Positions 13,804 through 16,918 of a stretch of 64,000 bases of DNA are shown here, in pieces; the first letter of the stretch is position 1, and each line of letters begins with the position of its first letter. Under the pieces are notes generated by a model, which searched no databases, was not told where the DNA came from, and saw only the letters and a program-made list of their open reading frames with translations. Location: assembly GCF_009914755.1 (NCBI RefSeq), contig NC_060943.1; one strand, written 5' to 3'. Made by a program: the position numbers and the translations under genes. Origin of the DNA: the human T2T-CHM13v2.0 reference genome, Homo sapiens.

Positions 13804-14343
13804 TAAAAAAAAAAGCAGAATATTGAGGACTCTTTGTGGAAGACCATATGATGGTCATAGAATCCATCCATCTTAAAAATCTCTACATTTTATCCCTGAA
13901 TAAAAACAGACCCCCAGGAGGCTGTGGACTTTGGCTACACTGTTCTGGGTCCCTGAAGCACTCTGATCACTGAGTTTGGTTTTGGTATTACACCACTGGC
14001 TTATCTGTGGGGGCACTAACTTCTATATGATCTATATCATGACCCATCAAAGAAATTTCTTCTTAAGTAACATGAAATATTCACTTTTCTAGAGGAGCTT
14101 TCTCCTCAGGGAAAAGGAAACGATTTGTTATTGTGTCCATGTGGTAGACTGCATTTCCCAAAGATGACCACAATAATATCTCACATTCCAAAGAAAACCT
14201 TCTGCTAAATCTTGCCACTCCCACACGAAGAGATGGAGCCTATTCCCTTCCCCCTTGAACCTAGCTAGTCTTGGTGATTTGCTTGTACCTGCAGAATACA
14301 ACAGAGGTGACACAACATAACTTCCGAGGCTAAGGCAGAAAAG

Positions 14344-15332
14344 CATGGGGGAAAGAATGAGAGATCAGACTATTACTGCATCTATGTAGAAAAAGGAAGA
14401 CAAAAGAAACTCCATTTTGATCTGTACTAAGAGAAATTATTCTGCCTTGAGATGCTGTTAATCTGTAACCCTAGCCCCAACCCTATGCTTGCAGAAACAT
14501 GTATTGTATTGACTCAAGGTTTAATGGACTTAGGGCTGTGCAGGATGTGCCTTGGTAAAAATGTGTTTGCAGGCAGTATGCTTGGTAAAAGTCATGGCCA
14601 TTCTCCAGTCTCGAGTACCCAGGGACACAATGCACTGCAGAAAGCCACAGGGATCTCTGCCCAAGAAAGCCTGTGTATTGTCCAAGGTTTCTCTCCACTG
14701 AGACAGCCTGAGATATGGCCTCATGGAAAGAGAAAGACCAGACTGTCCCCCAGCCTGACACCCATAAAGGGTCTGTGCTGAGGAGGATTAGTGAAAGAGG
14801 AAGACCTCTTTGCAGTTGAGATAAGAGGAAGGTATCTCTCTCCTGCTCATCCCTGGGAATGGAATGTGTCAGTGTAAAACCCGATCGTACATTCTATTTA
14901 CTGAGATAGGAGAAAACTGCCTTATGGCTGGAGGTGAGACATGGTGGGGGCAATACTGTCTTTACTTCACTGAGATGTTTGTGTAAAGTCAAAGATAAAT
15001 CTGGCCTATGTGCATATCAAGGCACAGCACCTTTCCTTAAACTTATTTATAACACAGAGTCCTTTGCTCACGTTTTCCTGCTGACCCTCTTCCCACCATT
15101 ACCCTATAGTCCTCCCACATCCCCCTCACCGAGATAGTAGAGATAGTAATCAATAAATACTGAGGGAACTCAGAGACCAGTGTTGGTGCGGGTCCTCCGT
15201 ATGTTGAGTGCCGGTTCCCTGGGCCCACTTTTCTTCCTCGATAGTTTGTCTCTGTGTCTTATTTCTTTTCTCAGTCTCTCGTCTCCACCTTGTGAGAAAT
15301 ACCCACAGGTGTGGAGGGGCAGGCCTCCTTCA
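14344..15332 (+). mobile_element. HERV-K(HML-2) LTR5A/B-type LTR followed by a primer-tRNA copy
   Basis: Full U3-R-U5 colinear with the other LTR5 copies; ends 'ggcaggcctccttca'; first two bases read CA rather than TG. Confidence 0.92.
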
Positions 15333-15334
15333 TC

Positions 15335-15407
15335 TGGCACCCAACATGGGGCACGAACCCATGACCCTGAGATTAAGAGTCTCATGCTCTACCGACTGAG
15401 CTAGCTG
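15335..15407 (-). tRNA. tRNA-Lys(CTT) retrocopy/pseudogene including 3' CCA
   Basis: Minus strand reads GCTAGCTCAGTCGGTAGAGCATGAGACTCTTAATCTCAGGGTCATGGGTTCGTGCCCCATGTTGGGTGCCA; anticodon CTT at 15375-15377; 5' end of the acceptor stem is missing, so probably non-functional. Confidence 0.93.
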
Positions 15408-15696
15408 CAGAATGCAACAGAGGTGACACAACATAACTTCTGAGGCTAAGGCAGAAAAGGCCCTGTGGCCGCATCTTGGCTGTCTCAGAGCCAGCATCAT
15501 GCTGTGAGAAGCCCATCCATGTCACATGTGGAGGTCACACACAGGTGCTCTGGCTGGCAGCCTCCTTGAGCCTAGTTTTCAAGTAATCCCAGCCTGGCAC
15601 ACAGATACAGAGAGGAAGAAGCCTTCAGATGATTCCAGTCCCCAACCTTCTGAGTCTTCCAGTTGAGATTCAAGACATCATGGTGTGAAGACAAGC

Positions 15697-16918
15697 TGTG
15701 CAGTAAAGGATAAACAGAGCGAGTCTGGGTTACCCAGAAACTGAACATTCCAAAGAAAGGCTCAGCCCTTCCCTATACCTGGCAGGTAACTTCTAAACCA
15801 AGCTTGTCCAACCTGCGGACCATGGGGTGCACATGGCCCAGGAGGGCTTTGTTTTGTTGTTGTTGGTGGTGGTGCACACAGCCCAGGAGGGCTTTGTTTT
15901 GTTGTTGTTGTTGTTGTTTTTGTTGTTTGAGATGGAGTTTCACTCTGTTGCCCAGGCTGGAGTGCAGGGGCACAATCTCAGCTCACTGCAACCTCCAACT
16001 CTCAAGTTCAAGCGATTCTCCCACATTCGAGCAATTCTCCTACTTCAGCCTCCCAAGTAGCTGAGATTACAGGCATGTGCCACCATGCCCAGATAGTTTT
16101 TTGTATTTTTAGTAGAGACGGGGTTTCACCATATTGGCAAGCCTGGTCTGGAACTACTGACCTCAAGTGATCTGCCCACTTCAGCCTCCCAAAGTGCTGG
16201 GATTACAGGCATAAGCCACTGTGCCTGGCCTCCAGGAGGGCTTTGAATGCAAAACAAATTTGTAAACTTTCTTAAAACATTATGAGATTTTTTGAGTTTT
16301 TTTTCTTTTTTCTTTAAGCTCATCAGCTATTGTTAGTGTTAGTATATTTTATGTGTGGCCCAAGACAATTCTTCTTCCAGTGTGGCCCAGGGAAGCCAAA
16401 AGACTGCACACTCCTACTCTAAGCCGTTGGAATATATTGTCCGATGAGGGTCTTTGTTTACTGGGAGCCTTGGGTCACACAAGATCGTCTATGCTAACAA
16501 TGTATGATGGAAGCCTTGGGCCACACTGTAGTTATGGTGGCCTCTGAAAGGGCTGAAGAATAAGGTCAGCCACTCATGTGCTCAGCCTCACCCATATAAC
16601 TAAAGCCAAATAAAAACCCTGGACACCCAGGCTCAAGTGGGCTTCCTGTACTGGCAATACATCATGCCTGTCGTCACACATCATGGCTAGGACAATCAAA
16701 CATTGTCCATATGACTCCACAGAGAGAGGAAAACTCAAAGCTTCTGCACAGCATCTCCCAAACCCTGCCCTACACACCTTTCTCTGTTTCTGATTTTAAC
16801 TGTATCCAGTCTATGTAATAAAATAAAATCATGAATATGACAGTTTTGCTGAGCTCTGTGTTATTCTAACAAATTATTGAACCTGAGGAACCCCAGATCT
16901 TGCGATCCCCAGAACATA
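15697..16918 (+). mobile_element. Old ERVL/MER68-like LTR interrupted by Alu (15885-16230, -) and MER30 (~15805-16420)
   Basis: 'tgtgcagtaaagg...ccctggacacccaggctcaagtgggcttcc...ttattgaacctgagg'; MER30 motif 'agctcatcagctattgttagtgttagt'. Confidence 0.5.

What the first reader, a model, noticed from the sequence alone, without database searches (positions are those of the whole stretch)
15353..15353. Genomic record of an RNA modification: the only non-CpG mismatch in the tRNA copy is at m1A58
Seen: against the recalled tRNA-Lys(CTT) sequence the copy differs at 15339, 15346 and 15362 (all CpG-type transitions) and at 15353, where plus-strand A replaces the expected T. Counting from the 3'-terminal A76 at 15335, base 15353 is tRNA position 58 (T-loop reads TTCGTGC instead of TTCGAGC). 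Established: m1A58 blocks Watson-Crick pairing, is the strong-stop signal, and causes misincorporation when RTs read through it. Inference: the template was a mature, modified tRNA, and this transversion is the ancient HERV-K RT's misincorporation at the point where it should have stopped.
Basis: partly seen in the sequence, partly recalled or inferred. Interest (0 to 1): 0.85.

Follow-up and report, generated by a model that had tools for sequence, protein, structure and literature searches.

The report
RNA methylation scar in LTR-tRNA fossil
An ancient retrovirus's copying enzyme ran past its usual stopping point on its tRNA primer, and the resulting LTR-plus-tRNA DNA, now fixed in human chromosome 19, carries a wrong base exactly where the tRNA bore a methyl group, a pattern that recurs in other reverse-transcribed tRNA copies.

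Summary
The minus strand at 15335-15405 is a DNA copy of mature tRNA-Lys(CTT), positions 76 to 6, including the CCA tail. Against intact Lys-CTT genes of the same genome it differs only by G49A, C65T and C72T (CpG transitions) and A58T (window 15353).

The copy continues the primer-binding site of a complete HERV-K-type LTR (14344-15332). The unit of LTR plus tRNA is flanked by a 54-bp target duplication. It is therefore neither an integrase product nor a recombinational solo LTR. Its shape is that of plus-strand strong-stop DNA that read through the primer.

- 5 of 13 CCA-bearing Lys-CTT copies differ at position 58 (T, T, T, C, G), against about 5% at other non-CpG positions (P=4e-4; 4e-3 without this locus).
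- 0 of 16 copies without CCA differ there.
- Both CCA+polyA tRNA-His retrocopies examined carry T58.

The m1A58-misincorporation reading is the most probable one (about 0.72). It is not proven for this locus:
- Ape orthologues could not be examined.
- Three non-CCA pseudogenes of other tRNAs also carry T58.
- The enzyme is inferred, not shown.

Eight literature searches found no description of such a genomic record.

The parts
14290..14343 (+). left copy of the 54-bp target-site duplication
   Evidence: the repeat finder D1. Local alignment of the flanks, 52 of 54 identical. A genome search finds this 54-mer only at these two places.
14344..15332 (+). complete HERV-K-type (betaretrovirus-like) LTR, U3-R-U5. 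The first two bases read CA instead of the usual TG; the LTR ends ...CTTCA.
   Evidence: Aligns over 14346-15332 with the LTRs of L004, L024, L016, L019 and L035 (76-90% identity). It also aligns with 5' LTRs of proviruses L056, L054 and L059 (82-87%), whose downstream frames hit Pfam Gag_p10 and Gag_p24.
15333..15334 (+). two-base spacer 'tc' between U5 and the primer-binding site
   Evidence: Sequence. The same TTCATCTGG junction occurs in L004, L019 and L035.
15335..15352 (+). 18-nt primer-binding site, the complement of tRNA-Lys(CTT) positions 76-59 including CCA
   Evidence: In normal proviruses, homology to this insert stops at 15350-15352. That is one base before position 58.
15353..15353 (-). 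tRNA position 58: T in tRNA sense (plus-strand A) where all genes have A
15354..15405 (-). the rest of the tRNA copy, positions 57 down to 6 (read-through part)
15406..15459 (+). right copy of the 54-bp target-site duplication

Best explanation
Window 14344-15405 is one 1,062-bp insertion. It consists of a complete HERV-K-type LTR, the usual 2-nt spacer, and then the complement of mature tRNA-Lys(CTT) from A76 to G6. This is the anatomy expected of plus-strand strong-stop DNA. Such DNA starts at the polypurine-tract-primed 5' end of U3, copies U3-R-U5, and then copies the tRNA primer still attached to the minus strand. It normally halts after 18 nt, one base before m1A58. Here it ran on almost to the 5' end of the tRNA. 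Read-through DNA of this kind cannot make the second strand transfer. This dead-end molecule was instead captured in the germline at a staggered break (54-bp target duplication, no integrase signature). The plus-strand A at 15353 (T58 in tRNA sense) is most likely the dA that the reverse transcriptase put opposite m1A58 while bypassing it. Shown: the anatomy, the duplication, and the excess of position-58 changes in CCA-bearing copies. Inferred: the order of events, the capture route, and that the enzyme was the retroviral RT.
For: (1) Anatomy. LTR, tc, PBS and tRNA 76->6 are contiguous. Related proviruses share the LTR and PBS but diverge at 15350-15352, one base before position 58. (2) A 54-bp duplication sits flush with both ends and occurs only twice in the genome. 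(3) Recurrence. 10 of 13 CCA-bearing Lys-CTT copies abut a retroviral U5 end. Six have a full LTR of this family (L001, L004, L016, L019, L023/24, L035). Three have a second LTR family (L018, L022, L032). One lies inside a rearranged provirus (L002). L004 is LTR + tRNA + the last 53 nt of U5 with a 6-bp duplication CTTCCC, so it was made and inserted by viral enzymes. (4) Position 58 is changed in 5 of 13 copies (T, T, T, C, G). Background at the other 49 non-CpG positions is 32 of 637 cells, with 8 of 637 transversions. Poisson-binomial P=3.9e-4 for any change and 1.2e-4 for transversions. Without this locus the values are 4.1e-3 and 2.2e-3. (5) Controls. 0 of 16 Lys-CTT genes or pseudogenes without CCA are changed at 58 (Fisher P=0.011). 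(6) Another tRNA. 2 of 2 tRNA-His copies with CCA+polyA have T58, and the one non-CCA His pseudogene fetched has A58. Pooled: 7 of 16 CCA copies against 3 of 36 decayed non-CCA copies, P=0.0057. (7) Literature. m1A58 is required for the strong stop, and without it RT copies further tRNA sequence (PMC8599865, passages). m1A gives both arrest and mismatches, and with G at +1 the C signal is low (PMC4787781, section 27). This fits T, T, T, G with one C.
Against: 8 of 13 CCA-bearing Lys-CTT copies keep A58, and so does the one initiator-Met 3'-half+CCA+polyA copy (L108). The mark is therefore not obligatory. Three copies without CCA carry T58: Lys-TTT L074 and L075, which are related to each other, and an initiator-Met-like pseudogene L107. 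T58 can thus also arise, or persist, without a visible CCA. Numbers are small. The searches score only the best candidates (40 of 45, 40 of 65), and the first query itself carried T58. The non-CCA controls for His, Phe, Gln, Val, Ala and Met were hand-picked dispersed, decayed hits (16 short stretches), not a census. L001, L002 and L020 share C65T and C72T as well as T58. I attribute this to recurrent CpG decay (each seen in 6 of 13 copies), but common descent of the tRNA segment is not formally excluded. The first two LTR bases read CA rather than TG, which is unexplained. No orthologue was examined, so the base could be younger than the insertion.
Confidence: 0.72

Rival explanations
1. Ordinary point mutation after insertion. 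RT read through an unmethylated or correctly copied A58, and the A-to-T change at 15353 arose later by chance.
For: The two duplication copies differ at 2 of 54 sites (Jukes-Cantor 0.038). About one random non-CpG change is therefore expected somewhere in a 71-nt copy. 8 of 13 sister copies show read-through without a change at 58. Three non-CCA pseudogenes have T58.
Against: The chance that the single non-CpG change falls on one pre-specified site is about 1 in 60. An A-to-T transversion is rarer still; my estimate is 0.002-0.02 per site at this age (inference). The same site is hit in 4 of the 12 other CCA-bearing Lys-CTT copies and in 2 of 2 His retrocopies, but in 0 of 16 Lys-CTT copies without CCA.
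Confidence: 0.12
2. The primer was a variant tRNA that encoded U58. It could not be methylated, so it gave no stop. On this view T58 is the cause of the read-through, not its scar.
For: An A58U mutant tRNA-Lys3 has been used to argue for loss of the stop (mentioned in the introduction of PMC8599865). T58 is the commonest variant among the read-through copies.
Against: None of the 16 Lys-CTT genes or pseudogenes without CCA in this genome has anything but A58. The variants at 58 differ between copies (T, C, G). They also occur in tRNA-His copies and in polyA-tailed copies that needed no strong-stop failure.
Confidence: 0.05
3. The scar is an m1A58 misincorporation, but it was made by another polymerase. 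This could be LINE-1 ORF2p or a host repair polymerase copying the RNA end of a captured minus-strand DNA-tRNA molecule, rather than the HERV-K RT.
For: PolyA-tailed tRNA copies without any LTR (L020, L093, L094) carry the same T58, so non-retroviral RTs leave the same mark. The 54-bp duplication shows that host-side steps took part.
Against: The left end of the insert coincides, within 2 nt, with the 5' end of U3. That is where plus strands start, but it is not a natural end of minus-strand DNA. There is no polyA tail and no T-rich nick site at the duplication borders. Sister locus L004 was finished and inserted with a 6-bp duplication typical of integrase.
Confidence: 0.1

Closest known systems
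Read-through of the plus-strand strong stop when m1A58 is missing (HIV-1 and M-MLV RT in vitro; TRMT6-mutant cells), PMC8599865
   Same: Same step of reverse transcription. The normal stop is one nucleotide before position 58, and continued copying of the tRNA gives a product that cannot complete plus-strand transfer (passages read).
   Different: That work is in vitro and in cell culture with lentiviral and gammaretroviral RTs. It reports no sequence scar and no fixed genomic copy. Here the product of a betaretrovirus-like element is fixed in the germline and carries a mismatch at position 58.
Cloned circular M-MuLV DNA with a tRNA copy between the LTRs (Colicelli and Goff 1986), and an HIV provirus abutted by reverse-transcribed tRNA-Gly (PMC12220202)
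   Same: A retroviral RT copies nearly a whole mature tRNA (CCA present, a few 5' bases missing), and the copy stays joined to an LTR end. I read this as described in the Background and Discussion of PMC12220202.
   Different: Those are experimental, somatic or episomal molecules, made with spurious or self-primed tRNA-Gly. No modification scar is discussed in the passages I read. I could not read the 1986 paper itself (not held).
RT signature of m1A in RNA-seq (PMC4787781)
   Same: m1A gives arrest plus misincorporation at the modified base. The mismatch mix depends on the 3' neighbour, and with G at +1 the C signal is low (section 27). The genomic copies show T, T, T, G and one C.
   Different: That signature is read in sequencing libraries made with commercial RTs. 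Here it is read in chromosomal DNA tens of millions of years old.
Capture of retrotransposon cDNA at chromosomal breaks in yeast (Ty1; recalled from Moore and Haber 1996 and Teng et al. 1996, not read here)
   Same: Integrase-independent insertion of incomplete reverse transcripts by host repair.
   Different: Recalled only. That is yeast with induced breaks. I have not checked whether tRNA primer sequence or long target duplications were seen there.

Membership tests
Read-through plus-strand strong-stop DNA | Starts at the 5' end of U3 (polypurine-tract priming) | tested here: met
   Alignments to six other LTRs and to proviral 5' LTRs begin at 14346-14356. The insert begins at 14344, but its first two bases are CA, not TG.
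Read-through plus-strand strong-stop DNA | Complete U3-R-U5 followed by the spacer and an 18-nt PBS complementary to the tRNA 3' end including CCA | tested here: met
Read-through plus-strand strong-stop DNA | tRNA complement continues past position 58 towards the tRNA 5' end, with no internal proviral sequence | tested here: met
   The copy runs to position 6 and is followed directly by the right target duplication.
Integrase-mediated provirus or solo LTR | Short (5-6 bp) target duplication and TG...CA ends | tested here: not met
   The duplication is 54 bp, the right end is tRNA position 6, and the left end reads CA. The contrast is L004, with its 6-bp CTTCCC duplication.
LINE-1-mediated processed pseudogene | 3' polyA tail and an A/T-rich nick site at the duplication border | tested here: not met
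   There is no A-run at either junction. The duplication borders read CC|TGCAG and GAAAAG|GCCC.
m1A reverse-transcription scar | Mismatch exactly at the methylated base, recurrent in independent reverse-transcribed copies and absent from DNA-level copies | tested here: met
   5 of 13 against 0 of 16 for Lys-CTT. 7 of 16 against 3 of 36 over seven tRNA types. The three exceptions without CCA are noted.
m1A reverse-transcription scar | The template tRNA-Lys(CUU) carried m1A58 at the time | not testable with these tools
   That mammalian tRNA-Lys(CUU) has m1A58 is recalled knowledge. PMC8599865 states only that TRMT6-TRMT61A makes m1A58 in human tRNAs.
Functional tRNA-Lys(CTT) gene | Complete acceptor stem, with CCA not encoded | tested here: not met
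   Positions 1-5 are absent, CCA is encoded, and T58 breaks the conserved T54-A58 pair.

The most novel reading that the evidence does not exclude
The human genome holds a small class of germline insertions that are dead-end reverse-transcription intermediates: an LTR plus the whole primer tRNA. They entered by at least two routes, integrase and host break repair. More generally, reverse-transcribed tRNA copies preserve a readable record of an RNA modification (m1A58, possibly also t6A37). Such copies could serve as a 'paleo-epitranscriptome', reporting the modification state of primers and the bypass spectra of extinct reverse transcriptases.
Probability: 0.55. Interest if true: 0.75.

Novelty: new variant of a known kind. 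Interest (0 to 1): 0.62.

Why it matters
Whether m1A58 is the natural stop signal for plus-strand strong-stop DNA was debated for decades (PMC8599865). These loci are natural, in-vivo products of failure of that stop. A mismatch at exactly that base in about 40% of them is what a methylated template would leave.

The loci also show that incomplete reverse transcripts can enter the primate germline without integrase. In addition, they suggest a way to read past RNA modifications and RT error spectra directly from genome sequence, in any species with tRNA retrocopies.

For annotation, the tRNA-Lys call at 15339-15409 is a retro-copied primer, not a gene. The LTR is not a recombinational solo LTR.

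Tried and rejected
- Functional tRNA gene: rejected. The 5' end is missing, CCA is encoded, and T58 is present.
- Solo LTR formed by LTR-LTR recombination, or a truncated provirus: rejected. The 54-bp duplication is flush with LTR+tRNA.
- LINE-1 retrocopy: rejected for this locus (no polyA).
- L001 and L002 as duplicates of each other: rejected. L002 lies inside a provirus between pro/pol and RNase H/integrase frames, next to a 28S fragment.
- Replication in tRNA-Lys(TTT): 0 CCA-bearing copies among 37 matches, so no test was possible.
- tRNA-Pro: 25 matches, none a dispersed decayed copy covering position 58. None was fetched.
- Phe, Gln, Val and Ala: no CCA-bearing copy among the 10 stretches fetched that matched those tRNAs (L097 was a different tRNA and was dropped). 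They serve only as controls.
- Target duplications at L016, L019, L035, L018 and L032: none found. L022 has a doubtful low-complexity 16-17-nt repeat.
- Naming the LTR subfamily: no repeat library is on hand, so it is left at 'HERV-K-type'.
- Primate orthologues: no primate genome is held.
- Colicelli and Goff 1986: not held.
- Supplements of PMC4787781 and PMC8599865, which may hold mismatch spectra: not opened.
- Literature searches: none found a paper describing a genomic m1A58 scar or germline LTR-whole-tRNA insertions. Subscription journals and old scans are not searched, so prior description cannot be excluded.

Full report
**What is at the site**

The minus strand of 15335-15405 reads as tRNA-Lys(CTT). 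ARAGORN calls it at 15339-15409. Rfam's tRNA model gives 46.7 bits against a gathering score of 29.

I took reference sequences from intact Lys-CTT genes of the same assembly rather than from memory. Six loci (L005-L010) are identical to one isodecoder and two (L012, L014) to a second. Against the first, the window's copy covers positions 6-76 and differs at G49A, A58T, C65T and C72T.

Positions 49, 65 and 72 belong to CpG dinucleotides; 58 does not. The copy ends in CCA, which none of the genes encodes (3' flanks).

**Surroundings**

On the plus strand the tRNA complement is the direct continuation of a retroviral junction. A 989-bp LTR (14344-15332) ends in ...CTTCA. It is followed by the spacer 'tc' and the 18-nt primer-binding site at 15335-15352.

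The LTR aligns end to end with LTRs at five other loci (76-90% identity). It also aligns with the 5' LTRs of proviruses L056, L054 and L059 (82-87%). Their downstream frames match Pfam Gag_p10 (E=6.7e-22 and 1.3e-23) and Gag_p24, so they are betaretrovirus-like, HERV-K-type elements. In those normal proviruses the similarity to the window stops at 15350-15352, the last bases of the PBS and one base before tRNA position 58. In the window it continues for 53 more bases of tRNA.

**How it was inserted**

Immediately left of the LTR (14290-14343) and immediately right of the tRNA copy (15406-15459) lie two copies of one 54-nt sequence. They are 52 of 54 identical. A whole-genome search with the right flank finds this 54-mer only at those two places.

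The inserted unit was therefore exactly LTR + spacer + tRNA(76->6). A 54-bp duplication, a right end inside a tRNA, and a left end reading CA instead of TG all exclude retroviral integrase. The absence of a polyA tail or a T-rich nick site argues against LINE-1. A recombinational solo LTR would not retain sequence internal to the provirus.

The shape is that of plus-strand strong-stop DNA: it begins at U3, runs through U5, and ends on the primer tRNA. This molecule did not stop after 18 nt but ran almost to the tRNA's 5' end. According to PMC8599865 (passages read), m1A58 is needed for that stop. [quoted passage not shown] I infer that this dead-end molecule was captured at a staggered chromosomal break. 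The capture route itself is not shown.

**Is the change at position 58 a scar of m1A58?**

Two searches of the window's own genome were made. One was seeded with this copy (40 of 45 candidates scored). The other was seeded with an A58 sister copy (40 of 65 scored). Together with two stretches fetched by coordinate, they gave 13 independent Lys-CTT copies that carry CCA.

| Group | Loci | Evidence |
|---|---|---|
| Full LTR of the window's family | L001, L004, L016, L019, L023/24, L035 | |
| LTR of a second family | L018, L022, L032 | |
| Inside a rearranged provirus | L002 | |
| No LTR | L003, L020 (polyA tail), L031 | |

So ten of the 13 abut a retroviral U5 end.

Over positions 14-73, position 58 is changed in 5 of the 13 copies: T in L001, L002 and L020, C in L016 and G in L031. 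No other non-CpG position is changed in more than 2. Background is 32 changes in 637 cells, 8 of them transversions.

| Test | Result |
|---|---|
| Poisson-binomial with each copy's own divergence, any change | P=3.9e-4 |
| Same, transversions only | P=1.2e-4 |
| Same, without the discovery locus | P=4.1e-3 (any) and 2.2e-3 (transversions) |
| Fisher, 5 of 13 CCA copies vs 0 of 16 non-CCA Lys-CTT loci | P=0.011 |
| Fisher, pooled: 7 of 16 CCA copies vs 3 of 36 decayed non-CCA copies | P=0.0057 |

The 16 non-CCA Lys-CTT loci are 10 genes and 6 decayed pseudogenes. None has anything but A58.

tRNA-His gives a second, independent case. The two copies that carry CCA plus a polyA tail (L093, L094) both have T58, and the one non-CCA pseudogene fetched has A58.

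The observed bases (T five times, G once, C once) agree with the published m1A signature. m1A gives mismatches as well as arrest, and with G at the +1 position the C signal is low (PMC4787781, section 27).

**What speaks against it**

- Eight of 13 Lys-CTT copies, and an initiator-Met 3' half with CCA and polyA (L108), keep A58. That is expected if some primers were unmethylated or the RT sometimes inserts the right base. It still means the scar is not obligatory.
- Three copies without CCA carry T58: Lys-TTT L074 and L075, which share other changes and are probably one event, and the initiator-Met-like L107.
- The controls for tRNAs other than Lys were hand-picked dispersed decayed hits, not a census. 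One fetched stretch (L097) turned out to be a different tRNA and was dropped.
- No primate orthologue could be examined, so I cannot show that the base dates to the insertion.
- The two duplication copies differ by 2 in 54 (Jukes-Cantor 0.038). With mutation rates that I assumed, this gives roughly 17-38 My. At that age about one random non-CpG change per 71-nt copy is expected. For this locus taken alone, the argument rests on that change falling on the one site specified in advance.

**Which enzyme?**

The left end at the start of U3 is a plus-strand start, not a natural minus-strand end. Sister locus L004 consists of LTR + tRNA + the last 53 nt of U5 and is bounded by a 6-bp duplication (CTTCCC). 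So it was completed and inserted by viral machinery.

This makes the retroviral RT the likeliest author of the read-through. However, polyA-tailed copies (L020, L093, L094) show that other reverse transcriptases leave the same mark. The enzyme at this locus is therefore inferred.

**Comparison with what is known**

Read-through of the strong stop and copying of whole tRNAs by retroviral RTs are known from experiments:
- PMC8599865.
- Colicelli and Goff 1986, as described in PMC12220202. The 1986 paper itself is not held.

The m1A mismatch signature is known from sequencing libraries (PMC4787781).

Eight full-text searches and passages of PMC7472051, PMC11905727, PMC13174262 and PMC4189335 turned up neither of two things:
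- a description of germline LTR-plus-whole-tRNA insertions;
- any reading of an RNA modification from chromosomal retrocopies.

The library omits most subscription journals, so earlier description cannot be excluded. I class the finding as a new variant of known kinds.

**Verdict**

The main rivals are a later point mutation (0.12), another polymerase making the same scar (0.10), and a U58 variant primer (0.05).

Noticed in passing
L004 (G000 C18:46278758-46281834), locus 514-1629: LTR + tc + tRNA-Lys complement (76 to about 7) + the last 53 nt of U5, bounded by a 6-bp duplication CTTCCC. This is a mini-element with two integrase-competent ends. It was probably made by a template switch from the tRNA back to U5.
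   Followed up: partly
L002 (G000 C19:38119305-38122382), locus 1255-1600: Inside a HERV-K provirus, the RT part of pol is replaced by about 15 nt of U5 end + tc + a full tRNA-Lys copy (T58) + about 100 nt + a 135-nt 28S rRNA fragment (Rfam LSU_rRNA_eukarya 162 bits, model positions 1199-1334). All of these are antisense to the provirus. The flanking frames hit RVP and G-patch on one side and RNase_H, rve and Integrase_Zn on the other. It looks like serial template switching.
   Followed up: partly
L016 (G000 C16:2952763-2955846), locus 786-2563: A gag frame (Gag_p10, Gag_p24, NC zinc knuckle) in sense runs directly into tRNA-Lys sense (C58) + CCA + an antisense LTR. This is an inverted join, perhaps autointegration or fold-back.
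   Followed up: partly
L023/L024 (G000 C1:39370944-39374473): Tandem 459-bp units, each made of the 3' 400 nt of the LTR plus the tRNA copy from position 12. The two tRNA copies are identical, including their mutations, so the duplication is later than the insertion.
   Followed up: no
L018, L022, L032 (G000 C7:98.37M, C7:12.73M, C11:54.70M): A second LTR family (71-86% alike over 670-1050 nt; CCA is followed by a GATATC hairpin) also carries whole tRNA-Lys(CTT) copies. All three have A58. I could not name the family.
   Followed up: partly
L093 (G000 C1:112431720-112431860) and L094 (G000 C20:59115500-59115650): tRNA-His copies with CCA and polyA tails. Both have T at position 58; L093 also lacks C56.
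   Followed up: partly
L019 and L031, tRNA position 37: A37-to-C transversions occur in 2 of 13 CCA-bearing Lys-CTT copies. Position 37 carries t6A in this tRNA (recalled), so this may be a second, weaker modification scar.
   Followed up: no
L074, L075 (Lys-TTT-like) and L107 (initiator-Met-like): Pseudogenes without CCA that nevertheless carry T58. L074 and L075 also share G1A and G5A. They may be retrocopies that lost or never had CCA, or ordinary mutations.
   Followed up: no
genome-wide matches: There are many dispersed, well-conserved matches to only the 5' part of tRNAs: Gln positions 1-44 at 93-98% identity, and His, Phe and Val positions 1-36/38. Their origin was not examined.
   Followed up: no
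window 14344-14345: The LTR begins CA where all related LTRs begin TG. This could be two transitions, filler from end joining, or imprecise plus-strand priming.
   Followed up: no
window 15927-16229: Two partial Metazoa_SRP matches below the gathering score (49.5 and 37.9 bits, minus strand). I take this to be an Alu element just downstream of the insert.
   Followed up: no
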